The position numbers and the translations under genes are program-made. From a virus: 64,000 nucleotides of DNA. Of the stretch, positions 20,299 through 47,387 are shown in pieces (the stretch's first letter is position 1; each line of letters opens with the position of its first letter). The DNA is taken from IMG/VR virus record IMGVR_UViG_3300025941_000018, positions 11,296 through 75,295 of that record, one strand, 5' to 3'. The notes under the pieces are model-generated. The model did no database searches, was not told where the DNA came from, and worked only from the letters and a program-made list of their open reading frames with translations.

Positions 20299-20765
20299 GA
20301 AACGAGTTTCCTTTCCGGGGTTCCTGGCACGCCATGTTTATCAGCGTGGTAAACGTAACACATTGCCATCAACGGAGCGCTAATCCGGCGCATGCCCTCC
20401 CATCCGCCACAAATCATAGCCACTGCCAATATCACCTCGTTTCCAGAGTGCCGCAGCACATCGGCCCATTGCCGCTTCCAGGGTTCTGGCTCCTTTTCCC
20501 AACGAACGCTATCGGTCCACAAGTTCGTTGCGATCAAAACCGGCATTTGTAACTTGGCTACGTGCCGCACGTAAAACGGGTGCGAATAGAATTGGCACGC
20601 CATCATTAACACACGCAAAATATTTTCAGGTTCCCATTTCTGCTCATCACAAACATCATCCACTGCCCGAAGGTAGCACCCCCAGAGCCGCAAGAAATCT
20701 TCCGCGCCAGCCACGCCATTGGCAATTATTCCGTTCAGTTCCTGAATCGCGCTTGGCTCTTTCAT
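20295..20765 (-). CDS. DDxxD helical protein, paralog 2
   Basis: RAVDDVCD; FY.RH; DSVRWE...WKRQW.D.LR; ICGG. Confidence 0.55.
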   Translation of the reverse strand: MKEPSAIQELNGIIANGVAGAEDFLRLWGCYLRAVDDVCDEQKWEPENILRVLMMACQFYSHPFYVRHVAKLQMPVLIATNLWTDSVRWEKEPEPWKRQWADVLRHSGNEVILAVAMICGGWEGMRRISAPLMAMCYVYHADKHGVPGTPERKLVS

Positions 20766-21538: not shown

Positions 21539-21885
21539 TGCTCAATATCGTCTGTCGCGCTGGCTGGCTTGCCATCGCCCGTCCACCATTCGAAATTAAG
21601 GAACCAGCCGTCCCCGCGGTCGGCATGAGCGCCATGCGCTTGCGCAGCGGTAACCGTATAGAACCGCACCCACGGCAAGGGGCGGTGTTTATTGGAGCCA
21701 TCGCGCGCAACGGATAGGTTTCGGTTTAGGAATACGAAACGGCTGATGATATTGGGGTGCCGGTGCGCTGGGATGGAGTGACCGAATGGACATGTCCAAA
21801 GTTCAATGCGGAGTCGGCCAATTGCCAAAAACAGCCAACCACTGCATTGTGGAGCTATGCTCGGTGCTGGAAGACGGGGAAACAT
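21535..21885 (-). CDS. Cupin-domain protein
   Basis: IPAHRHP and second-motif AHGA; beta-rich. Confidence 0.65.
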   Translation of the reverse strand: MFPRLPAPSIAPQCSGWLFLAIGRLRIELWTCPFGHSIPAHRHPNIISRFVFLNRNLSVARDGSNKHRPLPWVRFYTVTAAQAHGAHADRGDGWFLNFEWWTGDGKPASATDDIEQ

Positions 21886-22658
21886 CAGTAGGATTGCGCT
21901 GCGCTGCTCATAGTGGAAGCCATTTTGGCTTCGTCCTTATCCTGATAGCTCTGCAAATCGTTCAGGAATTTGCCCCAGCGCTGCATCCCTGTGGTTTTCT
22001 GCTGTACCCCGTAAATGTTGTTGGCCTCATCTATGGCGGTGAGGCTTCCGAGATTTCCAGCGTTCGCTCCGAACATTTGTTGGCGTGCGGTGGCAGGGAC
22101 GAGGCTGCGCTGCGCTAGAGTGTCAGCCATTCCCTGACGAGTACCAGCCATGCCGGTTTGCAGGCCCAACCGGCGATAATAATCCTGGCTTGCCTGATCT
22201 GCATCCTGCACCTGGGCTTGTAGTTGATATGGCAGCACCACCCCGGCGAGCAATCGGTCTCGGTAGGTGCCCCCGCTCCCATCTGATCCGACCATTGAGC
22301 GGTTGGCGGTAGCTTGCGCAAATCCCGACCGCCATTTGTTCATGTCCGTTGCAGCGCTCAATCTCCGCGCTCGAAGCCCCGCTTGGTCAGTTTCAAAACC
22401 ACCGTCATATAGTCGATTGAGCGGGGCCATCTCCTCTTCGGTGCGCTTTCCGGCATCGGCGCTGCCTGCCAGGTATTTGGAGATATAATCTCCCAGAGCC
22501 GCCTGTCCTGCCGTGCGGTTCGAGTCAAAATCCCCCAGCAGCGCATTCTCGCGGGAGGCAATGCCAGGGCTCTTGGTATTCCTCAATGTGCGAAACTTCG
22601 GGTCTCCCGAAAAATCGTTAAACGCGCTGCCGCCGATTCCGAAAAGACTTCCAGTCAT
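21885..22658 (-). CDS. Putative DNA ejection / pilot protein
   Basis: Gly/Ala/Gln-rich, follows GNAT and nozzle as in podoviruses. Confidence 0.55.
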   Translation of the reverse strand: MTGSLFGIGGSAFNDFSGDPKFRTLRNTKSPGIASRENALLGDFDSNRTAGQAALGDYISKYLAGSADAGKRTEEEMAPLNRLYDGGFETDQAGLRARRLSAATDMNKWRSGFAQATANRSMVGSDGSGGTYRDRLLAGVVLPYQLQAQVQDADQASQDYYRRLGLQTGMAGTRQGMADTLAQRSLVPATARQQMFGANAGNLGSLTAIDEANNIYGVQQKTTGMQRWGKFLNDLQSYQDKDEAKMASTMSSAAQSY

Positions 22659-31061: not shown

Positions 31062-31261
31062 TTCGGAAATGCAGCGATGCGCTCGCCGAGGATGTCTGAG
31101 TAAGTGCCCATTGCCTCAAGTTGCCGCTCAAGCCGATCCCGCTCAGAAGCGTCGAGCGAGTGGTAAACCGCTCCGCCGGTAAAACTCCGAAGCTTCTGGC
31201 ATCTGTCGTCCAGTTGCTCCTTCTCGGCTATAACTCGTTCCTGGTATGCAAACATAATCAT
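31058..31261 (-). CDS. Conserved small coiled-coil phage protein (crAss001_48-like)
   Basis: QERVIAEK..L.....KL..F...L..QL.AM..Y..IL..RI. Confidence 0.75.
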   Translation of the reverse strand: MIMFAYQERVIAEKEQLDDRCQKLRSFTGGAVYHSLDASERDRLERQLEAMGTYSDILGERIAAFPK

Positions 31262-31764
31262 TCTCCTGCCGGTGGAACCGCCAACCCATCCTTCGTGAAA
31301 CTTGCCAGCTTCGACTTACGCTTGCCGACCGTCGGTTTGAACTCGGCTTTCTCACCAGTGGCAGGCGGCGGGTCGTTCACCCGAACCTGTTGCGAGACTG
31401 GCGCGGGCGTATCAGGACCACTAACCCCCACCACAGCAGCGACTCTTTCGCTTCCCAGCGCCTGGACTGGCGACAGTGACTTTAACGCTCCCTTGCCCAT
31501 CTCCTCTCTCCAAAGCGGCTTTGATGCTCCCGACGGATTCTCTTTTTTTTTGTCAATCCATTCGGTCTTGAACTCTTCGGCGCTGACTTCAGTCACACCT
31601 GAGCGGCCCTCTCTAATGCACGCCTCTAGTTCAGCTTGAACTTGCGGATTATCGTGCGCAAACCAGCCGACCAGATTGTCCAGCGTCGGAAACTTGATTC
31701 TTCCAACCGTCGGGCAAAGGACATCATTCGAGGGACCCAGCTTTTTGAAATAGCGCATTGCCAT
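31258..31764 (-). CDS. Hypothetical capsid-region protein
   Basis: Own promoter TTGACG-17-TAAAGG 6 nt before ATG 31764. Confidence 0.65.
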   Translation of the reverse strand: MAMRYFKKLGPSNDVLCPTVGRIKFPTLDNLVGWFAHDNPQVQAELEACIREGRSGVTEVSAEEFKTEWIDKKKENPSGASKPLWREEMGKGALKSLSPVQALGSERVAAVVGVSGPDTPAPVSQQVRVNDPPPATGEKAEFKPTVGKRKSKLASFTKDGLAVPPAGE

Positions 31765-31802
31765 GGGCAACCTTTAGACCTTCCTCTATCCACCGTCAAA
31801 TG

Positions 31803-31872: not shown

Positions 31873-32688
31873 TTACGCGATCTGGGGAGGGTTGGCAAGG
31901 GGGATTGTGGCGCCTTTTGACAGATTATCAAATTCCCAAAGGGGCTGGATATTAGAGAAATGAAAGCAAATTTTCTGCTGCTCTGGGTCCGTCAGATCAA
32001 AAGAACTACATGGTCGCTTATGATCCAGATGGATTTTCCCGCTCATTATTCCCTCCATGCTCATGCCCTCGGTAAATTGCGATTCAAGGTGGGCGATGAG
32101 TTCTGGAATGGTACAGCCAATCAGTTCCATGGTTTTCTTTGCTTTCTTGGCCCGACCTCGGAGCGCGTGCCAGAGACGCGAACGAAGTCGGTTGCCGATA
32201 TTGTACTGCGGATCGGTTTGCCTTTTGTGGCGTTGCCAGAGCTTGATGTATTCACGGTCGCGATCAGCGGTGATGTGCTTCCGTGCTTTTATCCGATCGT
32301 ACTGCTTCTGTTTGTTGCGCATGAAATAGTCCATGCCTCGCTTTTTGCACTCGGCGTTGTAGAAAAGGTCTCCGTAGTACTTGTCGTTGCGCTGCTTTAT
32401 TCTCCTCTCCCTAATTTTCGGCTGCATGTTTTCAGCCCTCATCTTGGCGAGCACGTCTGGGTCGCTCATCCTGCGGTGGATGTACTGAATGTTCCAAAAT
32501 TTCTCCCGATTGAGCAGGAGTATCCAGACGTATAACCGGGAGTTTTTATTACATAGAATTGCGGGCCAAAGCGGCGACACGTCTATAAAATCCACGGCGT
32601 CTGCGCGTTTGTTTTTCCTCCATGCTCGAACGATGGGCGACCAATCAACGGGTTCCGAATTTGGCTTTCTTAATGGGTGCGACATAAG
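31873..32688 (-). CDS. HNH-type endonuclease inserted after capsid gene
   Basis: LRSRL...LIGCT...HLESQF..GM...HLDHKRPC..FDL....CFHFSNIQPLW..DN..KG. Confidence 0.88.
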   Translation of the reverse strand, partial: LMSHPLRKPNSEPVDWSPIVRAWRKNKRADAVDFIDVSPLWPAILCNKNSRLYVWILLLNREKFWNIQYIHRRMSDPDVLAKMRAENMQPKIRERRIKQRNDKYYGDLFYNAECKKRGMDYFMRNKQKQYDRIKARKHITADRDREYIKLWQRHKRQTDPQYNIGNRLRSRLWHALRGRAKKAKKTMELIGCTIPELIAHLESQFTEGMSMEGIMSGKIHLDHKRPCSSFDLTDPEQQKICFHFSNIQPLWEFDNLSKGATIPLANPPQIA

Positions 32689-32830
32689 TTTTTGAAGCGC
32701 CCCGTGATGCGTGTCGCACCTTGCAGCAGGGAGCCGCAAGCACGTAACACGGAGCGAAGTTGTTCGGTGACGAATTCATTCGGGTGCGAACCGAGGGAAA
32801 AATAATGGCCGCCATCTCGAACAAACGCAA
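32689..32830 (-). promoter_or_regulatory. Promoter plus structured leader of HNH gene
   Basis: TTGCGT-17-CATTAT; hairpin CGG-TTCGCAC-CCG with loop complementary to GGTGCGA inside GCTCCGTG..CACGGGGC stem. Confidence 0.55.
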
Positions 32831-32831
32831 C

Positions 32832-32860
32832 AAAAAACCCTCGCCAATTACGGCGAGGGT
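32832..32860 (-). terminator. Intrinsic terminator after major capsid gene
   Basis: CCCTCGCC-gtaatt-GGCGAGGG-TTTTTT. Confidence 0.85.
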
Positions 32861-32880: not shown

Positions 32881-34833
32881 TTAGACCAAAGAACTCAGCG
32901 CAGTGAATGCAACCGAGAGTCCGATTAGTAGCCAGCCTAATCCGGCGTAAAGGTTACTATAAGATGGGTTCAAACTGCGCCCTGAAGTTGAAGGCACCAC
33001 GTCTGCGATCCCCAGAATCGCCAGCGAATTTGCGGGGCATTCCACAATGGCCGTTTTTGTGACGCTAGTAAGCGTGATCTCCTGCGTCACATTCTCCATC
33101 GTGCAAGCAAATGTCGGGTCGAGCCTTGCGAGGTTTTCGAGTTCGCCGAGCGTGCGATTCTTCCGGTTGCTGTCGATCATGCCGGGATAGATCGTGCCGC
33201 CTTTAGGTCCAGGCTGGCCGATGTCGAGCACCAGCATCATACGACCTTGCGAACTGATATTCTCCGTCGAGAACGCGTTGAACCAGTCGTCGAAGTATTC
33301 GTGCGTGATGATGTTGATCGTCACACCCTGCGGGAACTTCGGCTGGAAGCTGGTCCAGTGGAAGCCGAGTTCGTTCTTGCCGGTCTCGATGTTGAGCCGA
33401 ACGATGTCGCCGTATTCGAGCTTCATGTAGTTCACAAAAGCGGTTTCGAACAGCGCGGCCATGCGCGAGTCCGTGTAAACGTCGATGGAGTCCGAGTTGC
33501 GGCCCTGGCTCTTGCGAGCACGCATGATGTTGTAAATCTCGTCGAAGAACTCGTAGAGATTGAGCGCGTTGTTTTGCAGGTCGCGAACACGGTCGCAGGC
33601 TCGTAACTGCTCGATGACGCCGATTTGATACGCCTCGTAGGCGACCAGCTTGCCGCCGGTGCCGGGGTCGATCTGCGAGCCGGTAACGGTCAGGATCTGG
33701 CGCAGGGATTGCCAGAGCGCCATCGTCTGGTTCGAGGACACAGCCTTACCCCAGAAGAACGCATTGACCTGCTCATTCTGGAACTGCATTTCATCCTGGC
33801 GATTGCGTTCGGCCATCGGGAGGTCCCCGAGTTGACGCCAGGCTTCGTTGGACTCCATCAGGCGGGCGAACACTTTCTTATATTCCGAATCCACGCAGCG
33901 GGAGCGGCGGACGGTTTCGATCCAGAACGGAATGCGTTTGCGAGGGTCGAGCGTTGGCCGGTTATGGCACCAGCTTTCGAAGTCGTTCGCAAATGCGCCG
34001 GTCTTGATCAGCACGCCCGAAGTAGGCGCGGTGTCGAAGGGAGTCGCGCTGCCAGAGTTTTGGCTGGTGATCAGCACGTCAACGTAGGACGAGTCAGCGG
34101 CGGCCGCCGATGCCAATACTTTCCACTGGCCTTGAGTGCCGACACCACTGCCGGCGCGGCCAAAGATTTGCACGCGATCGCGGTCAACGAACCAGTTGGC
34201 ATCGAGGTCAACTCCGTAGCGGCTGACAACTCGGACGACGCGGTCGCCAGCGGCGCCCAATGCCTTCTGTGCGGTCGTTAGCGGCCCGGTAACCAAGGCG
34301 GTGTACGCGGAATTCGCCTGACCTTGAGTGATGGCCCAGAAATCGACGTTGATGACGCTGTCCTGCCGAGCGAGCACGAATGGCTGCAACAGCGAAGGCC
34401 CGCGGTCGAGCTTGGTCGTGTTGATGAGCGACTTCATGTTGCGCGCACTGGACATGATCCAGTCATACACGCCATTGGTCTTCACGCCGCACGCCTGCAT
34501 TTCAAACGCGGTTCTCCACCAGGCATCCATATCGGCGTATAAGCCACCGGGACGGAATAGGGTGTCGAGGTCAGCGGGCGTCAGGTGGGCGACCGTAGCG
34601 CGAGTCACGGTGCCGCAGGTATCGTAGTTGTTTCCAACCACGACTTGGCACGGGGTACTCTTGAAGCGCGTGGCGAGTGCGGTAACAGCCATCGTGACGC
34701 CTTTGACGGGCGTCAGCAGCTTGGCGAGGAATAAGCCGGCAACTCCCCAAGCGGGATTGTCGAGCGTGAAAGCGGCTGCGGCGAGAACCAGCAGCGCGCT
34801 GAGGATAAGTAGCGGTCGTAATGTTCGTTTCAT
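32881..34833 (-). CDS. Major capsid protein (putative), with hydrophobic N- and C-terminal segments
   Basis: Follows portal and scaffold, followed by strong terminator; spine-helix-like E...NAFFWG then GVIEQL pattern. Confidence 0.72.
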   Translation of the reverse strand: MKRTLRPLLILSALLVLAAAAFTLDNPAWGVAGLFLAKLLTPVKGVTMAVTALATRFKSTPCQVVVGNNYDTCGTVTRATVAHLTPADLDTLFRPGGLYADMDAWWRTAFEMQACGVKTNGVYDWIMSSARNMKSLINTTKLDRGPSLLQPFVLARQDSVINVDFWAITQGQANSAYTALVTGPLTTAQKALGAAGDRVVRVVSRYGVDLDANWFVDRDRVQIFGRAGSGVGTQGQWKVLASAAAADSSYVDVLITSQNSGSATPFDTAPTSGVLIKTGAFANDFESWCHNRPTLDPRKRIPFWIETVRRSRCVDSEYKKVFARLMESNEAWRQLGDLPMAERNRQDEMQFQNEQVNAFFWGKAVSSNQTMALWQSLRQILTVTGSQIDPGTGGKLVAYEAYQIGVIEQLRACDRVRDLQNNALNLYEFFDEIYNIMRARKSQGRNSDSIDVYTDSRMAALFETAFVNYMKLEYGDIVRLNIETGKNELGFHWTSFQPKFPQGVTINIITHEYFDDWFNAFSTENISSQGRMMLVLDIGQPGPKGGTIYPGMIDSNRKNRTLGELENLARLDPTFACTMENVTQEITLTSVTKTAIVECPANSLAILGIADVVPSTSGRSLNPSYSNLYAGLGWLLIGLSVAFTALSSLV

Positions 34834-34882
34834 CTTGTTGCGTTTTGCCGGCGCGACATGCGCTCGACTTACGCAACAAGAA

Positions 34883-36394
34883 TCACTTAAACATCACGTC
34901 AATGATCTGCTGCTGCGTGGTTTTCGCCGGGGTAGGACCATTATTTGCCGTAGTCACGATGTCGGACGCTGAGGCAACTGAGGGCGAACGCGGTTTTCCC
35001 GCTGGCGTTGGGGCAATTGGCGCGGCTGGACGCGCAACTTGCGTGCCCGGTCGGACGCCATTTGTGGGTGGGGCCTCGGGTTTATACTTCCTTTTAGCCA
35101 GCGCATCGGTTTGTTGGATGAGATTTCGTGCCTTTTTCCCGTAATCGTCGGTAATAAGGTCCACCACATTGTCGATTGTCAGCGTCCAGTGGCGGGCATC
35201 GTATTCCTGAAGCTTGCGTTGCTGCTCCTGGCCGGTCGAGGTATCGCGGATCTGTTTGAAGTCTTTGGCCTTCTGCTCAAGGCTCACCCATTGCCGCCCA
35301 TTGACGTTCTGCACTTCTGCCGGGGCCTGCCGCAACTGATTCTCAGCCTCCCACCGATAGCCGTCGATGATTGCGTGGATCTGATTCTTGTCCGGTTGAA
35401 GCTTGAACGGGTAATTGCCATTGGCATCGCGCACTGTGGATTTTTCCAACTCGCGAAGGATAGGGTCAATCTCGGCCGCAGTCGCGTCGAGGACGGTTGC
35501 GGCGATAGCGTCGGCCTCGTGAACCTTCTCGACTGCTTCGGTGCTCAGGTTGGGATTCTTGCCGTCTGCCGCGGTGACCAGCGCTACCAGTTCGGGCGCG
35601 GCCACAGCCACAAGCTTGAGAATTCCCCTGGCAACGTTCATTTCGATGCTCGGGCGCGCCGATTCTAAGGCTTTTTCGGCATCCATCATGTCAATGCGGG
35701 GCTTCACCTTCTCGGCAAACCGCTGCTCGACGCGCTGCTCGACCTTCATGTCAATCAGCCCGTTTTCGATGGTCTCCTTGTCCACCGGGATCGGATTCGA
35801 AGCAAACCAGTCCGCGTGCTCGTCAGCTGATGGGTCCCATGTCTTGTCGGGATTTTCCTTCTCCCATTTGTCCTGGTAATCGTAAACAGACTTCACGTAA
35901 TCGAGGAAAGCTTTAGCCTTGCCGCTGAACTTCGCGGGGTCCTGCTTCTCCAAAAATTGCAGCACTGCGTATTCCTGGGCATCGGAAGCGCTCATTTCGA
36001 ACGTCACCATGGTTGGCTCTGGCGTGGCAGGGGCGGCGGCAGGTTCCGGTCTCCGCATGGCCTCCGCAGTCTCGCGCGCCGTGCGCGTAATCAGGTCCTG
36101 GGCGTCGAACGGGCGTGCCTGCGGCTCAGGCTCTGGTTCTGGCTCAGGTTCGGCTTGCGGCTGCGGCTCAGGGGCGGCAGCGGGCTCTACGGGCGCAATG
36201 GCGGCGGGTTCCGGCTGCGGCTCAGGCTCTGGCGCGGGGTCGCCGAATAACGAATCAACGGCCACTTTGGCCGCTGCCTTTAGTTCCTCGGCATTAGGCA
36301 CGTCTTTTGGGTCGGGTTCGGCAGGGGGAGCAGGCTTCACAATCGGCGCTGCTTTAACGAAGTTTATCGGCATAAAAGTTCGGCGTTCAATCAA
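34883..36394 (-). CDS. Capsid scaffolding-like protein
   Basis: PEPEPE/Ala-rich N-terminus, helical, Pro-rich tail; between portal and capsid. Confidence 0.6.
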   Translation of the reverse strand: MIERRTFMPINFVKAAPIVKPAPPAEPDPKDVPNAEELKAAAKVAVDSLFGDPAPEPEPQPEPAAIAPVEPAAAPEPQPQAEPEPEPEPEPQARPFDAQDLITRTARETAEAMRRPEPAAAPATPEPTMVTFEMSASDAQEYAVLQFLEKQDPAKFSGKAKAFLDYVKSVYDYQDKWEKENPDKTWDPSADEHADWFASNPIPVDKETIENGLIDMKVEQRVEQRFAEKVKPRIDMMDAEKALESARPSIEMNVARGILKLVAVAAPELVALVTAADGKNPNLSTEAVEKVHEADAIAATVLDATAAEIDPILRELEKSTVRDANGNYPFKLQPDKNQIHAIIDGYRWEAENQLRQAPAEVQNVNGRQWVSLEQKAKDFKQIRDTSTGQEQQRKLQEYDARHWTLTIDNVVDLITDDYGKKARNLIQQTDALAKRKYKPEAPPTNGVRPGTQVARPAAPIAPTPAGKPRSPSVASASDIVTTANNGPTPAKTTQQQIIDVMFK

Positions 36395-36720: not shown

Positions 36721-36968
36721 GCGCTTGTTTTAGCAACTAAGTCAGCCAGCTTTTTCTCAGCCTCGACGGGGTCCATTCTAGCCCACGGTCGGTCTTCAAT
36801 TACGGCAAGGGCCTCGCAGGGGCTAAGCCCGTGGCGTTCCTCTAATCGGCGCAGTGTTTGGCTGTGGTTAAGCTGGGCTTGACGCTCATGTCCTGCTATC
36901 AGCGACCACGGAATAGAACGCAGGACTTGCTTGTCGTGACCTTTCTGGATTGGAAAGTCGCCGATCAT
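36717..36968 (-). CDS. Conserved phage hypothetical protein
   Basis: IPW...HE.QA..NH.QTL.RL.ER.GLS..EA. Confidence 0.7.
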   Translation of the reverse strand: MIGDFPIQKGHDKQVLRSIPWSLIAGHERQAQLNHSQTLRRLEERHGLSPCEALAVIEDRPWARMDPVEAEKKLADLVAKTSA

Positions 36969-39481
36969 GCGCCGTTAGCCATCATCGGCTGATTCACGGG
37001 CGGAAGTTGCGGCGTTAGCGGTGGCCCTGGCTCTCGTCCTGGCGGCATCATCGGCGGCGTCCCAGGCATCGGCGGCCCGCTCGGCGGCATCATCGGCGCA
37101 ACAATCATTCCGACCATCTGCTGCAACACCTTCAGGTCATCCGAGTTTTTCTTAGTCGCCTCAAGCAACGGTTGCAACTCAGGTTGAAGCTGCTGCATCA
37201 CTTGGTCCACGACCTGTTTTAGCTGCTGCTCAGCCTGTGCCTTCTGTTCCTCGGGCGTCGTGTTTGGCCCGACGTTCCGGAGTTTGAAGTCCCGATCCAC
37301 GCCAGCCTTTTGCGCGATCTGGTTGGCGATGTCAATGAGCTGGTCGGCACCCAATGCCTGAACCATGCCCGGGATTTGAAGCAACGGTTGCATAAGTTGG
37401 CTCATGGCAATTGCGACCTGGGCGTCGTTCGTGCGGTCTTCGCCGTCGCGGGTCGAAGCAAAGAGCCACATGTCGATAGCGGTGGCCTGCTTCTTCACGC
37501 GCGCCGTGTGGTATTTGTCCCGCACGTTGAGATCCTTGTCCACGAAAGTAAAGCCCATGGCGTTCAGTTGCTCCTTGGTCAGTGGGGTCTCAGCGGGGAT
37601 ATGCGCGTACATGTCGTCGTCGCCGTAGGCCATCAGGCCGCAGTAGATTTGCCGCTTCCAAGCCTCGCAGAGAATATCGACTGGCGTAGCGGTGAACGTC
37701 TGCCGGCTGGAAGTGCTCTGCGCGATGTTCCGGACCTCTTCGCGCGTCTGCTCATGGCTGGCGGCCTGAGCGACTTCGTGGCTGCTCATTACCAATAGCC
37801 GTTCGAGTACGTCGAGGATGGTCTTTAGGACGTTGATCAACTCGGCGGTGTTGCCCTTGGGCAGCGCGAAAGTCTGGACGGCTTCACTGACCTTGTTCTG
37901 GCCACGGCTGGCTTTCTTGCCTGAGTAGCCGAACACGTTCAGAAAACGGTAAAGCCCCTCGCCGATGCCTGCGATGCGCTTCTTCGTGTCCTCCGGTATC
38001 TGGTCCTCATCGACCATCGTGATGTTGGCGAGGTTCTGCTTCGCCGTCAGGATGATCTGGTTGAGGACATTCGTGAACTGGTCTTGGAACGGCAGGATTT
38101 CCAGACTCATTGAGGCATTGCGGCTGCGGCTTTCGTCGGCGTCATACCCGGCGTAGAGCACCGGGCAGTAGGGCAGGGGTGCCGCGTAGATGATCGTGCA
38201 ACCGTCGCCGGCAAGGACAAACCTGAACCAGACGGGATGGTCGTAGTCGCCAAGCCCGTTCTCACTCGGCACCAACTTTTCGAAATATTCGGTCACCAGA
38301 ACGCCTTGGTCCAAGTGGTCGGTGCCGTAGTATTGATTAGCCAAATCCTTCTCACGGTCGAGTTGGCCGGTGCCGACTCCAGCCGTGTAAACCGGGGCTG
38401 CGCCGTCGATTGCTGGCGCCGGGGCTGGTGGAACAGCCACGCCCATTTTCATCGTGCAAGCGGAATAGACAGAGGTGAAGAACAGGCGATTGTTGACCAG
38501 CAGATCCGCGGTGCCCAGGCTCACCTTGTCCGTGTTCCAGAAGCCGCTGGTGAGAATGTCGCGGTAACGCGCCACGCGCCAGGCACCGAAAAACTGGCAG
38601 CCGCTGTCCGAGTTGTAGGTATAAGCGCCGTGGGCGAGGTCTTTGAAATATCGGGTGGGATGCCAGTGCTGGTAGCGCAATCCCTCGCGGGTGGTCACCT
38701 TGATTTCATCCCCGGCATTGACCGGTGTGCCATCCTCCTTCTTCTTTTCCATCAGGACATCTTCCTGATCGGCAATCTTCACCTGCGTCTCCGAGTGCCA
38801 CTCCTCTTTCGGAGTCATAAAGCACTCGCCGTAATGGAGCATTTTGAAAACGCCCTGCTTCAGCACGTCGAAGTAACTGTATTGCGTCGAGATGCCCTGG
38901 ACGCGATCGGTCAGCGCCTCGCACTTTACCCGCAACTGCGTCGTGGCTTTCACCGGCTCGTACTTGAGGAACGGTATCAGCCGACGGTCGTTCATCAGCT
39001 TCGCCCAGCGGATCGTCAGGTAGGCGCGGACCAGTGGAACGAAAACATTGAAGAAAATCGGCAGGTTGAAAACCTTCTTCCCGGTGTCGGCGCCGGTTCT
39101 CGGGTCCTTCTGCTGCTCGATTAGCGACGTCAGTCCCCAGTCCTGAAGCTGTTTGTAAACCGTGTCCTCATCGGGGTTGCTGTCGATCAGGGAAGCGATC
39201 AAGGTCGGGCTTATTTGCCGAAACGGGGTGTCCCATGCCTGGTCGAGCGCGTAGTAGGTTTTCCAGTCACGAAAGTTTCGGTCCATGCCCTCCTGAACAC
39301 GCGACCTGATTCGGTTCCACAGCGCCCAGCGTTTGTCCTGCTGTGTTGCGGTCAGCGGGTCGTAGCCAGGATCGCCGAGTTTTGCGCTGCCGTGCTGCAG
39401 GTCCTTCGGGTCGCCCTGCAAATTCTGGCGCAGGGTTTCGGCGGTGATGCCCCGCTTGGTAAGGATTGTAAGATCGATCAT
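36965..39481 (-). CDS. Portal protein (putative, P22-like)
   Basis: 838 aa, first large head gene; LPFQDQFTN, T.EEV motif, Gln coiled-coil and Pro-rich tail. Confidence 0.72.
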   Translation of the reverse strand: MIDLTILTKRGITAETLRQNLQGDPKDLQHGSAKLGDPGYDPLTATQQDKRWALWNRIRSRVQEGMDRNFRDWKTYYALDQAWDTPFRQISPTLIASLIDSNPDEDTVYKQLQDWGLTSLIEQQKDPRTGADTGKKVFNLPIFFNVFVPLVRAYLTIRWAKLMNDRRLIPFLKYEPVKATTQLRVKCEALTDRVQGISTQYSYFDVLKQGVFKMLHYGECFMTPKEEWHSETQVKIADQEDVLMEKKKEDGTPVNAGDEIKVTTREGLRYQHWHPTRYFKDLAHGAYTYNSDSGCQFFGAWRVARYRDILTSGFWNTDKVSLGTADLLVNNRLFFTSVYSACTMKMGVAVPPAPAPAIDGAAPVYTAGVGTGQLDREKDLANQYYGTDHLDQGVLVTEYFEKLVPSENGLGDYDHPVWFRFVLAGDGCTIIYAAPLPYCPVLYAGYDADESRSRNASMSLEILPFQDQFTNVLNQIILTAKQNLANITMVDEDQIPEDTKKRIAGIGEGLYRFLNVFGYSGKKASRGQNKVSEAVQTFALPKGNTAELINVLKTILDVLERLLVMSSHEVAQAASHEQTREEVRNIAQSTSSRQTFTATPVDILCEAWKRQIYCGLMAYGDDDMYAHIPAETPLTKEQLNAMGFTFVDKDLNVRDKYHTARVKKQATAIDMWLFASTRDGEDRTNDAQVAIAMSQLMQPLLQIPGMVQALGADQLIDIANQIAQKAGVDRDFKLRNVGPNTTPEEQKAQAEQQLKQVVDQVMQQLQPELQPLLEATKKNSDDLKVLQQMVGMIVAPMMPPSGPPMPGTPPMMPPGREPGPPLTPQLPPVNQPMMANGA

Positions 39482-40025: not shown

Positions 40026-40257
40026 ACCCATCGAAGAAGCCTCTGGCCCTATCGAAGCCCCGCAACTTTCCAAGCGCGTCACGCCTTTTGGCCGGGTCGC
40101 GATGCTCGGTGATGGGCCTCACATGCCACCCGAACTCGCCATCGGCCAGCGGGTCCATGTCGATGTTGACCGTGGCCACGTCGCCGTCGCTCACGAAGGC
40201 CGCCCGCATCGCATCGTCTCCGTGCTCGACGTGCAACTGATCTTCGCCGATGCCTAA
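39994..40257 (+). CDS. GroES/Cpn10-like co-chaperonin
   Basis: LGNRILIEP...G.I..P...GRV..LGDG...IGQRV; 87 aa. Confidence 0.75.
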   Translation: MKLLGNRILIEPIEEASGPIEAPQLSKRVTPFGRVAMLGDGPHMPPELAIGQRVHVDVDRGHVAVAHEGRPHRIVSVLDVQLIFADA

Positions 40258-41809
40258 CGACGCCGATGGTAATTGGTATCCCGACTTGTTCGATAAGCAG
40301 TTGGAAGTTCTAAATTCCCAGGCGCGCGCCCTTCTTGTTAGCGGCCCACGCCTGAGTGGCAAAACTCGAGGTACCCTTCACCGTATCGTTCGCCATCTCT
40401 GGGAAACTCCAGATGCCCGTGTGGCGATGTTCTCGCGCACGGTCAAAAACTCCAAAGAAGGCGGCACTTGGTCCCTGCTGCACGATGTCGTTCTAAAGGA
40501 GTGGATCGACGCAAAAATCGGCTTGCGATACACGACCCTGAGTGCCGAGAAGCGGCCCGGTTTCAAGCTCGACAGCCTCAGCCGCACCCTTTACTTCCGC
40601 ATCCGCAATGTCCATGGCGGCGAGTCCACCTGCATGTTGTTCTCACTCGACCATGACCCGGACATCGAGGACAAGCTGAAGGAGATGGAGTTTTCCATGA
40701 TTTATTTCTCCGAGCTTTCTAAATTCCACGACCGAAAGATCCTCGGGGTGTCGCTGCTTTCGCTTCGCATGTCCCATATTCCTTACGAAAGCCACATGTG
40801 GATTGCTGATACCAACCCAGCCGACGAAGGCGAGTTGTCGTGGATCTATCGAGTGTTCTACGTGGAACGTGTCCAAGATTACGCTGAGTATGTTGTCTGC
40901 CAAAAGAAACTCGGCTTACCGGTACTTGAAGAACGGTTGTTCCTGGCACAGCAACGCGATCTCGCGCTCATTGAGATTAAGCCCGGCGAAAACCCCAGGT
41001 TGGACCCGAGGCAACTCGACGAACTCAAGTCCCAGAACGCCTACGATGCCGGGTTGTGGGCTAAGTACGTCGAAGGCAAGTGGATTTACGGCGAGGGCGA
41101 TGCCTCAATGCACTTCAGGGCTTATTTCAAGCGCAACCTGCACATCGTCGGGGACTGCACGTCGCCTAATGAAGAAGACTGGACCTACGCGAACCCATCA
41201 CCCGGAGCCTTCGAATTAGTGCTCGGCCTGGACATCGGCGATGTAAACCATGCGGGCGTTATCCTTAACCGGGATGTCATTAACGGTCGCTCACACTTCA
41301 CCCTTATTGACGAACTGGTTTACCTCAAAAAGGAAATCGCGGTCACCACTTTCACCGAGGATTTCATGGAGTTAATTGAGGCCCACGAGAAAGCGGCCGG
41401 GCGGCAGTATAATCTCGACCGGGCCTGGTCGGACAGCAACTCCATCGAAAAGTACAGCGCGGTGGCCGCTACGTTTCCCTACCTGCAAGTCTATGCAGCG
41501 TCGGGCAATCGCATATTTCTCCGCGCGCTGCCCAAAGCCCAGTCCAAGGGCGGAGTGCGGCAGCGAGTGTCATTGGTGAAAATGCTGCTGCACACTGGCC
41601 GGCTAAAAGTCTCCGCTCATTGCCATTTCGCCATCGCCATGTTTGAGGGTCTTAAAAAGGGGAAGGTGGATTATATCCCGACAGAGGACCCGATGAAGCA
41701 CATTTTTGACGCGCTCAGTTATGCGCTCTTTATGGAATGTGCCGAAGAACTCGAAGAGATGCCAGAATCCGGCGGGAGATCAACCGGGATGATTGTGCAT
41801 GTCCGTTAG
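40250..41809 (+). CDS. terL: Terminase large subunit
   Basis: Q motif, Walker A SGPRLSGKT, ADTNP coupling motif, ENP.L, G.W, nuclease LGLDIG and HIFDALSY. Confidence 0.92.
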   Translation: MPNDADGNWYPDLFDKQLEVLNSQARALLVSGPRLSGKTRGTLHRIVRHLWETPDARVAMFSRTVKNSKEGGTWSLLHDVVLKEWIDAKIGLRYTTLSAEKRPGFKLDSLSRTLYFRIRNVHGGESTCMLFSLDHDPDIEDKLKEMEFSMIYFSELSKFHDRKILGVSLLSLRMSHIPYESHMWIADTNPADEGELSWIYRVFYVERVQDYAEYVVCQKKLGLPVLEERLFLAQQRDLALIEIKPGENPRLDPRQLDELKSQNAYDAGLWAKYVEGKWIYGEGDASMHFRAYFKRNLHIVGDCTSPNEEDWTYANPSPGAFELVLGLDIGDVNHAGVILNRDVINGRSHFTLIDELVYLKKEIAVTTFTEDFMELIEAHEKAAGRQYNLDRAWSDSNSIEKYSAVAATFPYLQVYAASGNRIFLRALPKAQSKGGVRQRVSLVKMLLHTGRLKVSAHCHFAIAMFEGLKKGKVDYIPTEDPMKHIFDALSYALFMECAEELEEMPESGGRSTGMIVHVR

Positions 41810-42479: not shown

Positions 42480-43180
42480 TCCCGAATCTGATAGGGGTCC
42501 ACGTTGTTGGTACGAACAAAGCCAACCCGATAGTAGCCCTGACTCCCCGGAGCATTGGTCACTACCACACTTGCCGCCGGCAACTTAGCCCAGTTGGTCG
42601 TGTCGTGGGTGATTTCCACTGTTACTGGGTCGTAAGTAATGATCGGCTGCGGCCATTGGAACGGCATTGAAAGGTCGCTGTTGGTGCCCGGTGCCAGTGT
42701 CTCGGCTTGAATCCAGTATTTTGAGCCATACAGCAAGTGTGGAATGGCATTGAAATTGGTTGGTGTGAAAAAGTTGGTGCTCACGTCCACTGCTCGGCCT
42801 TGGGCTATTGGCGTGACGAAGATTTGATAGCCACTCGCGCCGGGCACCGGGTCGAACTTTAGATACTTCAACGAATACGTCGCTGGATTGGTCGCGCCAA
42901 CAACCACCACATCGGGCGGCATTGGTGGAAGTTCTATCGCGGCAAGCCTTGCCGCCTGTGGGTCGGGTAGGTGATGCGCAGTTTCTTCCTGAGTGTAGAT
43001 CGGCGGATTCCACTGCACCGGCTCAGAGGTCACGGAATGAAACTGCGCTGGTGGCGTGAACGGCTGCCCCATCGCAACCACTTGGAGCATGACAGGTGCC
43101 GCGATGAAGGCTGGGTTAAATGGAACGATGCGCGGGATAGCCCTTATGCTCTCCCACAAGATGGCTGCAAGCGTAATCAT
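42476..43180 (-). CDS. Putative membrane/exported protein with FN3-like segment
   Basis: Hydrophobic N-terminus; FDPVPGASGYQI...L..G..Y. Confidence 0.5.
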   Translation of the reverse strand: MITLAAILWESIRAIPRIVPFNPAFIAAPVMLQVVAMGQPFTPPAQFHSVTSEPVQWNPPIYTQEETAHHLPDPQAARLAAIELPPMPPDVVVVGATNPATYSLKYLKFDPVPGASGYQIFVTPIAQGRAVDVSTNFFTPTNFNAIPHLLYGSKYWIQAETLAPGTNSDLSMPFQWPQPIITYDPVTVEITHDTTNWAKLPAASVVVTNAPGSQGYYRVGFVRTNNVDPYQIRE

Positions 43181-43491
43181 TTGGCCCCTTTCACCGCCCC
43201 AGCGACCGCTCCTTGCACGATGAGGCCAATCAGTTGATCCAAATTTGAACTTGTCACAGAGGCATCATAAGCGCCGATGGTTGATCCACTCGGGTAAGCC
43301 CAGACATTGCTTCCGGTCCCCGCTTGACCCGTGGTGTTCCTGAATTTCGTCAGCGACGATGTGCTGTCAAAGAAAGTGCAAACCCTTACAATGGTGTTTT
43401 CAGAACCGTCCGGCTTCTTGGTGGTGCTTGAGCGGAGATAAGCGCAGCCGCACAGCAGGGCCAGTGGTAGGATTAGGGCGAGTCTTTTCAT
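43177..43491 (-). CDS. Lipoprotein
   Basis: MKRLALILPLALLCG-C lipobox. Confidence 0.75.
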   Translation of the reverse strand: MKRLALILPLALLCGCAYLRSSTTKKPDGSENTIVRVCTFFDSTSSLTKFRNTTGQAGTGSNVWAYPSGSTIGAYDASVTSSNLDQLIGLIVQGAVAGAVKGAK

Positions 43492-44752: not shown

Positions 44753-45100
44753 TCATATCAGCTTACTCTTGATCTCAGCAACCATGCGCTTAGTTTCCTG
44801 GGCGGCTGCTTCCATTCGGACAACCGCGTCCAGCGTCTCCTCTGCCTTTCGGATGCGGGTATGATAATTGTCTAGCCGATCCTCAATGCGGGTTAGCGTG
44901 ACGGCATTTTCCTGCCTGACTATCACCGCAGACTTGTCGTTCTCCTTCATTTCCCGTTCCAACTCGGCGAGTTGTTTGCTCATGGATTCTTGGTTGAATT
45001 GAGAGCGAAACCAGGTAGCCGCTCCAGCGAGCAGGATGCCGATCCAAGTAACCACGTTCCCAATCGTGATTTCCAAAAAGTTCTTCGGGTCTTGTGCCAT
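44753..45100 (-). CDS. Single-TM coiled-coil protein (holin/spanin-like)
   Basis: ITIGNVVTWIGILLAGAATW then coiled coil. Confidence 0.6.
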   Translation of the reverse strand: MAQDPKNFLEITIGNVVTWIGILLAGAATWFRSQFNQESMSKQLAELEREMKENDKSAVIVRQENAVTLTRIEDRLDNYHTRIRKAEETLDAVVRMEAAAQETKRMVAEIKSKLI

Positions 45101-45135: not shown

Positions 45136-45453
45136 CTAAGGCTTTTTCTTAGAGAGAGCTTCATCGAGTTTATTCTGTGATGCGAGATGCGCCTTATATT
45201 CTTTCTCTGCTTGTACGGCTCGTTCCTGATAGGACTGATTCTCCGGGCTGCTGTCGGCAAGCTGCCGAAGCGCAACCGCGCCCACCCCAAGGGCAGCGCC
45301 CATTGCTTTGTTGCTCAGGGCGTGAATCGCAACTGTGTCGGTCTTCACGTCCTTAATGTCGTCGCCGTTTCGCCAGGATTTGATGAAGCTTCCCAACGCC
45401 AGAATGGTCGGCGCTATGGCAACGATTAGAGCGGTTTGAACGGCGTCGGTCAT
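45136..45453 (-). CDS. Single-TM membrane protein (holin-like)
   Basis: ALIVAIAPTILAL N-terminal TM. Confidence 0.6.
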   Translation of the reverse strand: MTDAVQTALIVAIAPTILALGSFIKSWRNGDDIKDVKTDTVAIHALSNKAMGAALGVGAVALRQLADSSPENQSYQERAVQAEKEYKAHLASQNKLDEALSKKKP

Positions 45454-47387
45454 TACCGCACCCTCCTTGCGCGAATCGATCCGTAGGCGGAAACGGTGCC
45501 TGCGCTGAAGGTCGCCTTGCCAATTAAATACACCGTAGTGGTCGCGCTCACATTGATTTGCTTAGCTGGAACCGTCAGTCCATCAGTAACAGATACGGCG
45601 GTGAACTGAGCGCCGGAATTGACTTCCGTTCCGTCGGTCGCAAGCGTGGCTGACGTGGTGCCAATTGACCCCGCCGAACCTGTGTAGGTCGCCGTGCCGC
45701 CTGCGAAGCTGATGTTGCCCGATACGTCCCAATCGCCTGCGGTGAGTGAGATGCTGGTGACGTTTGCTGCGGTCGCCGTCGTTAAGGAAACCGCACTTCC
45801 CGAGGCTACCAGCGATGAAATCACTTCGCCCACTATCCCCGAGGCGGCGCTGCTACCGGCGACGTAGCCGATGATGCCGTTGGAGAAACTTCCCGTGTTG
45901 GTGGCGATGACATTGCGAGCCAGCAAGTCTCGGTAATTGGCAGTTGTACCGTTATTAACTTCTACAATTCCAGAGTTTGCCGCATAAAGCCCCGCTTGAA
46001 CTGTCGAGAAAGAAGTGTCGTTGTAGAAAAGTACTTTTGTGTTCGGTAATCCTATACCGCCCGCAGTAAAACGGCCAGCAACACCACTTCCGGCTGCGAA
46101 CCAAAGTTGGCTCCCAAACGGGTTATACATACCCGTTCCGGGGTCAGCCCCAAATGCGAACCCAGGCCGTGACGTGCTTCCAATTTGAGCTAAGAAAATG
46201 CCGTTTGTGATCCTGGCTTCCAACCCCAAAGATCCATTGCTGATACTCAGGCTATCGTTCGTTGCAAAAATAAACCCCTTAGTCGCCGCATTCGTAACCG
46301 AAAACCCATTAGTAACCGTTGTTGATCCGAGTGTTACTGGCGCCCCAAAGCTAGTAGCCACGCTCTCTCCATTGGTAAGAATATTGCCTGGTGCCAGGAT
46401 ATTCGCAATGTTCGTCGCCGTGCTGCTCAGCTTGAGCGTGTTCGCGCTGAAGGTAAAGTCCGAGGACAAGTTGATGTTGCTCACCGTGTTGTCGCCTTCG
46501 AGTGCGAGGAGAGAGTTGACCACTGCGTTACTCAAGCTCAACTGATGCGCCGCATCGAGTGTGAAATTGTTGGACCCGCGCACAACGAAGGTGAAGGTCT
46601 GGGTGACGATGGTTCCGGGGCTCGCAATCGATGCTATGGTCAACACCCCGCCACTACTCGCGCCGGTATGCGTATGTTGCGCGCTCGTAAAATCCGAAAT
46701 GGCAGGCTGGTTCAATAACGGATTCGCCGCGAATACCGCCGCTCCGCTCCCTGTCTCATCCGTTAACGCCGTCGCCAATTGCCCCGAACTCAATGATAAC
46801 CTTGCCGGCGGCAATATCCCACTCGTCAGCTGCGAAGCATTCAGCGCTGTCAATCCAACTCCGATTCCTGCGATCTCCCCCAAGGAACTGATAGTGGCTA
46901 ATCCTCCAGCAAAACTGGCCAGCCCCGTCCCATTTCCATCTCCAAGGACAATGGCGCTGTTGTCCACCGACATGCTGCGCTTGTTGGTGGTGTAATTATC
47001 AAACACCGTTCCGGTAATGTGAAGGTCGTTGCCAGCGTTACCGTTGGTTACACCTCCAGAGAGCGCGTTGGTCTGGAAAAACGGGTAGGAAGATGTGATC
47101 CCGTTAGTTGCCGCCTGGGCTGCGGCCGCGGCTACATTTGTTACCAGTAATTTCGAAACATCGGCCGACACCGTGACAAGATGGCCGTTTGTAATCAGGA
47201 TCACGTTTGTTCCTGAACGAACAAAATAACCAGCCGATCCGACCAGCGCTACTCGATTGGTATTCACTAGAATGAATCCCCCATTCGTCCAAACGAAGTC
47301 ATTGGTCGAAAAAGACTGATAAGACGGGTTTGCCGCACGTCCACAAAGGCAGGACAGCAACAGTAGGACCGACAATAATTTCTTCAT
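45453..47387 (-). CDS. Fibre-like T/N/S/G-rich protein with Sec signal peptide
   Basis: MKKLLSVLLLLSCLCGRA; LTDETGSGAAVFA, P.F.F..D.GTGMY, G.VGE...SISLTAGDWDV...ARRVR fibre motifs. Confidence 0.75.
   Translation of the reverse strand: MKKLLSVLLLLSCLCGRAANPSYQSFSTNDFVWTNGGFILVNTNRVALVGSAGYFVRSGTNVILITNGHLVTVSADVSKLLVTNVAAAAAQAATNGITSSYPFFQTNALSGGVTNGNAGNDLHITGTVFDNYTTNKRSMSVDNSAIVLGDGNGTGLASFAGGLATISSLGEIAGIGVGLTALNASQLTSGILPPARLSLSSGQLATALTDETGSGAAVFAANPLLNQPAISDFTSAQHTHTGASSGGVLTIASIASPGTIVTQTFTFVVRGSNNFTLDAAHQLSLSNAVVNSLLALEGDNTVSNINLSSDFTFSANTLKLSSTATNIANILAPGNILTNGESVATSFGAPVTLGSTTVTNGFSVTNAATKGFIFATNDSLSISNGSLGLEARITNGIFLAQIGSTSRPGFAFGADPGTGMYNPFGSQLWFAAGSGVAGRFTAGGIGLPNTKVLFYNDTSFSTVQAGLYAANSGIVEVNNGTTANYRDLLARNVIATNTGSFSNGIIGYVAGSSAASGIVGEVISSLVASGSAVSLTTATAANVTSISLTAGDWDVSGNISFAGGTATYTGSAGSIGTTSATLATDGTEVNSGAQFTAVSVTDGLTVPAKQINVSATTTVYLIGKATFSAGTVSAYGSIRARRVR

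What the first reader, a model, noticed from the sequence alone, without database searches (positions are those of the whole stretch)
32881..34833. Major capsid candidate bracketed by signal-like and transmembrane-like segments
Seen: N-terminus MKRTLRPLLILSALLVLAAAA..WGVAGLFLAKLL and C-terminus YAGLGWLLIGLSVAFTALSSLV-stop (about 20 uncharged residues); a 10-bp inverted repeat CTTGTTGCGT/ACGCAACAAG abuts the ATG. Known: HK97-fold capsid proteins are normally soluble. Inference: membrane-tethered procapsid assembly with later cleavage, or a lipid-associated head. The N-terminal part disappears if Met48 is the start; the C-terminal part does not.
Basis: partly seen in the sequence, partly recalled or inferred. 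Interest (0 to 1): 0.8.

Follow-up and report, generated by a model that had tools for sequence, protein, structure and literature searches.

The report
Phage capsid protein with membrane-type ends
The shell protein of this uncultured 75-kb soil phage is a normal HK97-fold capsid protein, but it is made with a membrane-anchor-like front piece (kept in many relatives) and an optional membrane-like end piece, which I found described for no tailed-phage capsid and whose function is untested.

Summary
The ORF at 32881-34833 (minus strand, 650 aa) is the major capsid protein. It sits after the portal-like and scaffold-like genes. The AlphaFold2 model (pLDDT 87.5) matches only HK97-fold shells (Z 15.1 to phage VP1, 14.9 to crAss001).

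Met1, not Met48, is the start. In 21 of 22 related loci the whole spacer between the scaffold stop and the capsid ATG is a single hairpin. That hairpin touches the ATG of the leader wherever a leader exists.

The leader has a basic tip, a roughly 37-residue uncharged span and a central proline. It occurs in 63 of 234 relatives, shows synonymous-over-nonsynonymous change, and has no alternative start in some relatives.

The C-terminal tail has 18-22 uncharged residues and is all-or-none. I found 11 cases scattered over the tree, one of them in an 88%-identical relative.

No head protease or rhomboid was found, and the phage encodes few membrane proteins.

My best reading (about 0.4) is that both ends tether new subunits to the inner membrane before assembly; this is untested. 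The hairpin probably couples scaffold and capsid translation.

Unchecked earlier notes of this scan report similar leaders on other phages' capsid proteins.

The parts
32881..34833 (-). Major capsid protein gene, 650 aa (P0001), stop codon included
   Evidence: ORF. AF2 model m399f2871d66c has pLDDT 87.5. VIA Z is 15.1 to VP1, 14.9 to crAss001 and 10.8 to HK97, with all top-50 hits HK97-fold shells. The search found 279 homologues and 227 representative clusters.
34693..34833 (-). N-terminal leader, residues 1-47: basic tip (1-7), helix 1 (about 5-25), turn with Pro27, helix 2 (27-39), then a polar linker. Met48 is at 34692-34690.
   Evidence: Helices are from the AF2 model. The same architecture occurs in 63 of 234 relatives: tip with K+R 146 against D+E 6, Eisenberg H 0.80 and moment 0.09, median uncharged span 37 aa, central Pro in 54 of 63. 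Synonymous changes outnumber nonsynonymous ones in 5 of 6 pairs of the L002/3/5/11 clade.
32947..34668 (-). Conserved capsid core, residues 56-629 (N-arm plus HK97 P and A domains plus an insertion domain). It ends in the conserved motif NLY.
   Evidence: Alignments A1 and A2. Structural alignment covers residues 114-613.
32884..32946 (-). C-terminal tail, residues 630-650: 21 uncharged residues, rich in Gly, Ala, Ser and Leu, with Trp at the fifth position
   Evidence: A tail of the same type is present in L030 (88% identical core), in L013 and in 8 proteins. Tail length is either 0-2 or 18-22 aa, with nothing in between.
34834..34882 (-). Spacer between the scaffold stop and the capsid ATG, folded as one hairpin (18 bp, 2 nt free at the 5' side, 0 at the 3' side)
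   Evidence: The same arrangement holds in 21 of 22 related loci. It is the only gene of 40 in the window with such a hairpin touching its ATG.
32837..32860 (-). Intrinsic terminator-like hairpin (10 bp followed by a T run), 20 nt after the capsid stop codon
   Evidence: Comparable terminators follow the gene in the relatives.
34883..36394 (-). Scaffold-like protein gene (503 aa from TTG, or 496 aa from the ATG at 36373). It is Pro/Glu/Ala-rich at the front, and its stop codon abuts the hairpin.
   Evidence: Position and composition. Synteny is conserved in all loci. It has no family match, so the name rests on position only.
36965..39481 (-). Portal-like protein gene (838 aa), upstream in the same head module. 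The large terminase gene is divergent at 40250-41809 (+).
   Evidence: Position. Terminase_6N and phrog_979 match the + strand gene. The portal has no family match, so its name rests on size and position.

Best explanation
This is the phage's real HK97-fold major capsid protein. It is translated from Met1, so every subunit is born with a leader of about 47 residues of the membrane-hairpin type: a basic tip followed by two uncharged helices around a proline. In this phage it also carries a 21-residue uncharged C-terminal tail.

Shown:
- The fold is HK97.
- Met1 is the start.
- The leader is translated and under selection.
- The leader is spread over clades of the family.
- The tail is an all-or-none optional module.

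Inferred:
- Both ends insert into the cytoplasmic membrane of the infected cell, with the capsid core left in the cytoplasm.
- New coat subunits are therefore held as a membrane-bound pool, or are assembled at the membrane.
- In HK97-fold shells the N-terminus points inward and the C-terminus outward (my own knowledge of P22, T7 and encapsulins). A closed shell therefore cannot keep both ends in one membrane. The anchors must be pulled out or cut off, probably by a host enzyme, at or near the conserved polar linker before the core.
- The hairpin that fills the spacer puts the scaffold stop codon and the capsid start codon at its two feet. It most likely couples capsid translation to scaffold translation.
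For: - **Fold and gene order.**
- **Start codon.** The hairpin abuts the ATG of the leader in leader-bearing loci and the ATG of the core in leader-less loci, in 21 of 22 loci. Locus L015 has no ATG, GTG or TTG between the leader's Met and the core. In L002 the only internal candidate, an ATG 20 codons before the core, would still encode the second helix.
- **Selection on the leader.** In the last 30 leader codons, synonymous changes outnumber nonsynonymous ones in 5 of 6 pairs (for example 12 against 5), and length differences between leaders leave the frame intact.
- **Membrane character.** H is 0.80 and the moment 0.09. K+R per residue is 0.27 in the tip against 0.05 in the turn. The median uncharged span is 37 aa, against 14-17 aa in this phage's own export signals. 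A central Pro occurs in 54 of 63 leaders.
- **A variant with the same predicted outcome.** In P0004 and P0005 the leader is a single helix followed by a basic stretch. By the positive-inside rule this also leaves the core in the cytoplasm.
- **Structural neighbours.** The Atlas neighbours of residues 1-56 are pieces of membrane proteins; this is weak evidence.
- **Tail.** Eleven cases share H of about 0.7, a moment of about 0.15 and an aromatic residue near the start. Lengths are bimodal.
Against: - No experiment or proteome bears on this.
- No phage head protease (S78, S49, S77) or rhomboid was found. The cleavage step has no candidate enzyme, and podovirus-like head modules often do not process their coat protein at all.
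- In the window's own protein, helix 2 is only 13 residues long and contains a Lys, so a true double span is doubtful here.
- The tail is absent from the closest full-length relative (P0002, 86% identical in the core). It is therefore dispensable for assembly.
- TM-prediction programs (DeepTMHMM, SignalP) were not available. Hydrophobicity was scored with simple scales.
- The coupling role of the hairpin rests on geometry only.
Confidence: 0.4

Rival explanations
1. The hydrophobic ends are not removed. They stay in the virion as structural elements. The leaders would lie under the shell, as an inner hydrophobic layer or bound to lipid or internal proteins. The tails would lie on the outer surface as built-in cement or as a sticky decoration that helps virions adhere to membranes or soil particles.
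For: No head protease of the S78, S49 or S77 families and no rhomboid was found in this genome, and no rhomboid in five relatives' records. The head module looks podovirus-like, with a separate scaffold, and such phages usually leave the coat unprocessed (my own knowledge). The tail is optional among near-identical phages, as accessory decorations are.
Against: Several hundred copies of a 37-residue uncharged hairpin next to packed DNA, or of an uncharged helix on the outside, have no precedent among solved HK97 shells (none among the top matches). Cement helices are normally amphipathic, but the moments here are low. The genome encodes almost no other membrane proteins, unlike PRD1- or PM2-type lipid phages.
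Confidence: 0.22
2. Two products are made from one gene. Most coat protein starts at Met48 and is soluble. The long form from Met1 is a minor product with a separate, membrane-linked role, comparable to the two forms of T7 gene 10.
For: An in-frame ATG (Met48) lies 8 codons before the conserved core. Most leader-bearing relatives have an ATG, GTG or TTG within 6-17 codons of the core. Met1 sits at the foot of a strong hairpin that could limit initiation there.
Against: L015 has no candidate start other than the leader's Met, and in L002 the only internal candidate is 20 codons before the core and inside the leader. The hairpin-to-ATG rule places the conserved start signal at Met1 in every leader-bearing locus. 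Genes of this phage mostly lack Shine-Dalgarno sites, so nothing marks Met48.
Confidence: 0.12
3. The leader is an ordinary cleavable Sec signal peptide and the protein is exported.
For: The basic tip, a 15-residue uncharged run and an Ala-Ala-Ala stretch in the window's protein resemble a signal peptide. This phage does encode proteins with clear Sec, Tat and lipoprotein leaders.
Against: Across the family the uncharged span is 37 aa (median) with a central proline, against 14-17 aa in the phage's real export signals. A shell that must package DNA with a cytoplasmic terminase cannot be built in the periplasm; this last point is inference.
Confidence: 0.05
4. Artefact: a mis-called start plus read-through or an assembly error at the 3' end.
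For: The tail is missing in most relatives, which end exactly at the NLY motif.
Against: A second assembly gives the identical sequence. Ten other sequences carry a tail of the same length and composition. There are no intermediate tail lengths. The leader is under purifying selection. The hairpin marks Met1.
Confidence: 0.03

Closest known systems
HK97-fold major capsid proteins of podophages (Vibrio phage VP1, phicrAss001 gp32, N4 gp56)
   Same: The fold is the same over residues 114-613 (Z 15.1, 14.9 and 12.4). The gene sits after portal-like and scaffold-like genes and before a strong terminator.
   Different: There is no detectable sequence similarity: no Pfam, PHROG, PDB-sequence or cultured-phage match. 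The core is 574 aa with an insertion domain. A membrane-type leader and tail are present, which I know of in no solved capsid protein.
HK97 gp5 delta domain and T4 gp23 propeptide (N-terminal pieces removed by the head protease)
   Same: Both are N-terminal extensions ahead of the N-arm that are absent from part of the family. The extension here may be removed before maturation (inferred).
   Different: Delta domains are soluble, charged coiled coils that replace a scaffold, and they come with an adjacent protease gene (my own knowledge). Here the piece is uncharged, a separate scaffold-like gene exists, and no S78, S49 or S77 protease was found.
Membrane-bound start of T4 prohead assembly (portal gp20 with gp40 on the inner membrane)
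   Same: It is a precedent that a tailed-phage head can be started on the cytoplasmic membrane (my own knowledge).
   Different: In T4 the portal is membrane-associated, not the coat protein, and no transmembrane segment is part of gp23.
Membrane-anchored capsid proteins of flaviviruses and the hepatitis C virus core (hydrophobic anchor cut by a viral protease or by signal peptide peptidase)
   Same: It works the way I propose here: a capsid protein is tethered by a hydrophobic segment and released by cleavage next to or inside the membrane (my own knowledge).
   Different: These are unrelated folds in eukaryotic RNA viruses. The anchor is C-terminal and doubles as the signal for the next protein. 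No cleavage has been shown in the present case.
T7 gene 10B (C-terminally extended minor coat protein)
   Same: It is an optional, non-essential C-terminal extension of an HK97-fold coat protein that lies on the outer surface (my own knowledge).
   Different: 10B arises by a -1 frameshift and is a minority of subunits. Here the tail is in frame, so every copy carries it, and it is uncharged.

Membership tests
HK97-fold major capsid protein (Duplodnaviria) | HK97 fold (N-arm, P domain with spine helix, A domain) | tested here: met
   The model has pLDDT 87.5 and pTM 0.81. VIA Z is 15.1 (rmsd 4.1, 346 aligned) to VP1, 14.9 to crAss001 and 10.8 to HK97 Prohead II. All 50 listed entries are HK97-fold shells. 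Foldseek gives E 8e-10.
HK97-fold major capsid protein (Duplodnaviria) | Gene in the head module beside portal, scaffold and terminase genes | tested here: met
   The order is portal-like, small ORFs, scaffold-like, capsid, terminator, conserved in about 20 loci. TerL is adjacent.
HK97-fold major capsid protein (Duplodnaviria) | Main protein of the virion shell | not testable with these tools
   No cultured relative exists in the phage collection, and no proteome is available.
Sec-type cleavable signal peptide | Basic n-region | tested here: met
   The tips of 63 leaders hold K+R 146 against D+E 6.
Sec-type cleavable signal peptide | Short h-region of roughly 7-15 residues followed by a small-x-small cleavage site | tested here: not met
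   The median uncharged span is 37 aa with a central Pro in 54 of 63, against 14-17 aa in this phage's own export leaders. The window's protein alone would be borderline (15-residue run followed by AAA).
Tail-anchored membrane protein | Single uncharged helix of about 20 residues at the extreme C-terminus | tested here: met
   The 11 tails have 18-22 residues, H 0.60-0.78 and moment 0.09-0.25, with nothing after them.
Tail-anchored membrane protein | Actual insertion in a membrane | not testable with these tools
   This needs fractionation or topology reporters.
C-terminal sorting signals (LPXTG, PEP-CTERM, GlyGly-CTERM) | Signature motif, hydrophobic helix, then a basic cluster at the very end | tested here: not met
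   No tail ends in a basic cluster. They end in small or hydrophobic residues. No rhomboid was found in this genome or in five relatives' records.
Delta-domain-type propeptide with head protease | Head maturation protease gene in the genome | tested here: inconclusive
   There is no match to Peptidase_S78, S49 or S77 in the 75-kb record, and none in the head-module ORFs by Pfam or PHROGs. A novel protease cannot be excluded, and the record is 93% complete.
T7 10B-type extension by recoding | Extension reached by frameshift or stop read-through | tested here: not met
   The tail is in frame with no stop codon. In tail-less relatives the frames after the stop codon are closed or run into the terminator.
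Internal-membrane phages (PRD1 or PM2 type) | Double jelly-roll coat plus many small virion membrane proteins | tested here: not met
   The coat is HK97 fold. Only three other small proteins with a hydrophobic segment exist in the window, and they look like a lysis cassette.

The most novel reading that the evidence does not exclude
In a widespread group of uncultured soil and freshwater phages of about 75-80 kb, the HK97-fold coat protein is a membrane protein before it is a shell protein. Subunits are inserted in the inner membrane by a helix-Pro-helix leader, and in some phages also by a tail anchor. They are then released into the growing procapsid by a host membrane protease, or the anchors are kept and bind lipid in the particle. 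Either version would be a new step in tailed-phage head assembly. It may also serve to hide the coat protein from cytoplasmic immune sensors.
Probability: 0.3. Interest if true: 0.85.

Novelty: new variant of a known kind. Interest (0 to 1): 0.68.

Why it matters
Tailed-phage capsids are the textbook case of soluble subunits assembling in the cytoplasm around a scaffold. A coat protein that is born with a selected, membrane-type anchor would add a membrane step to that pathway, or a hydrophobic layer to the particle.

The system offers natural controls. Close relatives exist with and without the leader, and with and without the tail.

The stop-hairpin-start spacer is a compact, testable device for setting the scaffold-to-coat ratio in a host that seems not to use Shine-Dalgarno sites.

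Unchecked notes of this scan report similar leaders on unrelated phage coat proteins, so the feature may be general rather than a curiosity.

Tried and rejected
- **Sequence searches.** Pfam, PHROGs, PDB sequences and tblastn against 50,697 phage records gave nothing for the capsid, scaffold or portal proteins.
- **First AF2 model.** The 43-row alignment gave pLDDT 65 and was replaced.
- I could not fetch the DNA of the closest tail-less and tail-bearing sisters (P0002, P0003, P0014, P0020, P0075, P0104), so the gain/loss mechanism of the tail stays open.
- **Metagenome scan.** It returned only 16 loci.
- **Read-through or frameshift access to a hidden tail.** Rejected for tail-less relatives: after the stop codon the frames close or run into the terminator. 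Only L002, L003 and L005 show a short tail-like remnant in frame 0.
- **DNA alignment of the 3' ends.** Uninformative.
- **Host inference.** The four genome-collection hits are MAG contigs assigned to four different phyla, probably mis-binned phage contigs.
- **Expression.** No RNA holder was listed. Only the probable source sample covers the two ends, so population variation could not be read.
- **Lipid-rich virion.** There are few membrane proteins. The two multi-TM ORFs found are antisense to the scaffold and portal genes.
- **The DDxxD/cupin cassette at 19852-22658.** No Pfam match, so no link to lipids can be made.
- **Literature.** Three full-text searches found no tailed-phage coat protein with a transmembrane leader.
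- **Atlas.** The feature search gave no usable hit.
Full report
**What is there.** The window is 64 kb of a 75,295-bp IMG/VR virus record that is 93% complete. The ORF 32881-34833 lies on the minus strand and encodes 650 aa. Upstream on the same strand are an 838-aa portal-like gene, two small ORFs and a 503-aa Pro/Glu/Ala-rich scaffold-like gene. The large terminase gene is divergent at 40250-41809. A 10-bp terminator hairpin with a T run follows the stop codon after 20 nt. A Logan assembly of the probable source sample gives the same 2.2 kb with no difference.

**Is it a capsid protein?** Sequence methods say nothing. There is no Pfam, PHROG or PDB-sequence match, and no hit in 50,697 phage records. 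The protein has 279 metagenomic homologues in the word-indexed search and 227 clusters at 50% identity in the exhaustive one. Many sit on contigs of 75-82 kb. With a 149-row alignment, AlphaFold2 gives pLDDT 87.5 and pTM 0.81, with residues 63-623 confident. Re-alignment of Foldseek's best 1000 chains gives Z 15.1 to Vibrio phage VP1, 14.9 to phicrAss001, 12.4 to N4 and 10.8 to HK97. All fifty listed entries are HK97-fold capsids or encapsulins, aligned over residues 114-613 (first model). The fold and the gene order, which is conserved in about twenty loci, make this the major capsid protein.

Three lines of evidence say Met1 is used.
- In related loci the ORF is open through a comparable leader. 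L015 has no ATG, GTG or TTG between the leader's Met and the core. L002 has only one, 20 codons before the core and still inside the second helix.
- In the clade L002/L003/L005/L011, the last 30 leader codons show more synonymous than nonsynonymous differences in 5 of 6 pairs (for example 12 against 5), and the leaders' length differences leave the frame intact. The leader is therefore read as protein.
- The inverted repeat is a family-wide landmark. In 21 of 22 loci (42-88% identity) the entire spacer between the scaffold stop codon and the capsid ATG folds into one hairpin. The spacer is 38-71 nt long. The hairpin has 13-27 bp, with 0-6 nt free at the 5' foot and 0-5 nt at the 3' foot, and z is mostly between -3 and -7. 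In leader-less relatives the 3' foot touches the ATG of the core. In leader-bearing relatives it touches the ATG of the leader. In the window it touches Met1.

No other gene of 40 in the window has such a hairpin at its start. Shine-Dalgarno sites are rare in this phage and do not discriminate between the starts.

**The leader.** By a simple hydrophobicity criterion, 63 of 234 near-full-length homologues carry it. They cluster in several clades of the closer half of the family. The distant half starts a few residues before the conserved core. Sequence is poorly conserved, but the build is constant:
- a tip of about 5 residues with K+R 146 against D+E 6 overall;
- an uncharged span of median 37 residues with a proline in its middle half in 54 of 63;
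- a polar Ser/Thr-rich linker into the core.

Mean Eisenberg hydrophobicity is 0.80 and the moment 0.09, which is the transmembrane corner of the Eisenberg plot. The phage's own exported proteins have leaders of only 14-17 uncharged residues, so the capsid leader is not an ordinary signal peptide. It looks like a helix-Pro-helix membrane hairpin. The model shows helices 5-25 and 27-39. The Atlas's structural neighbours of residues 1-56 are fragments of membrane proteins, which is weak evidence. A variant in P0004 and P0005 has one helix followed by a strongly basic stretch. By the positive-inside rule, both versions leave the capsid core in the cytoplasm; this is inference. In the window's own protein the second helix is short (13 residues, with a Lys), so a full double span is uncertain there.

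**The tail.** Directly after the conserved C-terminal motif NLY, 9 of 234 proteins carry 18-22 uncharged residues. So do two further loci: L013, and L030 with an 88%-identical core. The tails are rich in Gly, Ala and Ser (36-50%) and have an aromatic residue within the first five positions. Extension length after that motif is 0 in 106 near relatives, 1-2 in 6, and 18-22 in 9, with nothing between. On a tree of the core, the nine tailed proteins need nine changes. Each has tail-less close kin, including P0002, which is 86% identical to the window's protein. Yet tails within one clade resemble each other (P0020 and P0075; P0014 and P0015). The tail is therefore a discrete, selected, optional module. 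It is neither read-through noise nor an assembly error. In tail-less relatives the sequence after the stop codon is closed or is the terminator. Only L002, L003 and L005 show a short tail-like remnant in frame 0.

**What else is, and is not, in the genome.** The window has only three other small proteins with hydrophobic segments. One is a lipoprotein-like protein at 43177-43491. The second, at 44753-45100, has a transmembrane segment followed by a coiled coil. The third is a small hydrophobic protein at 45136-45453. Together they look like a lysis cassette. No real multi-span protein exists in the whole record. No rhomboid was found in this record or in the records of five leader-bearing relatives, three of them at least 90% complete. 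No S78, S49 or S77 head protease was found in this record.

**How it most likely works.** The sequence features of both ends are those of membrane anchors, and both are under selection. I therefore think new coat subunits are held on the cytoplasmic face of the inner membrane. In solved HK97-fold shells the N-terminus faces inward and the C-terminus outward (my own knowledge of P22, T7 and encapsulins; not tested here). A closed shell thus cannot keep both ends in one bilayer, and the anchors must be extracted or cut. With no phage protease in sight, a host enzyme acting near the conserved polar linker is the likeliest agent; this is inferred. I give the whole chain about 0.4.

The main rival (0.22) is that the ends stay in the particle, as an inner hydrophobic layer and an outer sticky or cementing helix. 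The lack of a protease favours it. The uncharged, non-amphipathic nature of the segments and the near absence of other membrane proteins count against it. A two-product model with Met48 as the main start (0.12), true export (0.05) and artefact (0.03) are less likely, for the reasons above.

**The hairpin.** It places the scaffold stop codon and the capsid start codon side by side at its base. A ribosome ending the scaffold gene would either melt the stem or be handed directly to the capsid AUG. Translational coupling of scaffold and coat is the simplest reading, but it rests on geometry alone.

**Comparison and novelty.**
- The core is a new, highly divergent member of the HK97 coat family.
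- The leader differs from delta domains, which are soluble, charged and paired with a protease.
- T4 shows that heads can start on a membrane, but through the portal, not the coat.
- The nearest working analogues are the anchored capsid proteins of flaviviruses and hepatitis C virus.
- The nearest analogue of the tail is T7 gene 10B, which is made by frameshift.

Three full-text searches found no tailed-phage coat protein with a transmembrane leader. Earlier notes of this scan, mostly unchecked, report similar leaders on coat proteins of other phages. They also cover the L013 relative of this very family. One note linked a leader to a phage rhomboid; that link does not hold here. I rate this a new variant of a known kind, with interest 0.68.

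Noticed in passing
window 45453-47387 (-), 47384-48343 (-), 49000-50031 (-): Three large proteins begin with clear export leaders: two Sec-type and one twin-arginine type (RRSFIK). The first has a tail-fibre-like C-terminal part (phrog_11393). Exported fibre-like proteins are odd for a tailed phage.
   Followed up: partly
window 43177-43491, 44753-45100, 45136-45453 (all -): A lipobox protein, a protein with an N-terminal transmembrane segment followed by a coiled coil (weak XhlA hit), and a small protein with hydrophobic segments. Together they look like a spanin/holin-type lysis cassette. No endolysin was recognised.
   Followed up: partly
window 31873-32739 (-): An endonuclease VII-like gene (phrog_1035) sits between the capsid terminator and the next conserved gene (the 170-aa ORF at 31258-31770). 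No ORF of its size (288 aa) sits at that position in most related loci, where a 140-200-aa ORF usually follows the terminator. It may be an inserted homing-type nuclease, but ORF homology was not compared.
   Followed up: partly
window 51560-53539 (-): A 659-aa protein combines a YqaJ-type exonuclease end with a LAGLIDADG domain in the middle. It may be an intein or an inserted homing endonuclease.
   Followed up: no
window 8217-17948 (-): A 3243-aa ORF has no Pfam or PHROG match at all. By size and place it may be an internal or ejected virion protein.
   Followed up: partly
L002:5825-5900, L003:5858-5930, L005:5816-5890: In these tail-less relatives, frame 0 directly after the TGA stop reads a short Gly-Leu-x-Cys-Trp-Ile stretch that resembles the start of the tails. 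It then runs into the terminator. It may be a relic of a lost tail.
   Followed up: partly
L016:5800-5900 and L019:5764-6144: In two leader-less, tail-less relatives a small ORF with one hydrophobic helix follows the capsid terminator directly (about 31 aa in L016, 126 aa in L019). A link to the tail is not shown.
   Followed up: no
tails of L013, P0031, P0104: Three of the eleven tails end in a cysteine as the very last residue. No meaning is known.
   Followed up: no
window, most gene starts: Few genes have a Shine-Dalgarno sequence. This hints at a host with SD-independent initiation. The host remains unknown.
   Followed up: partly
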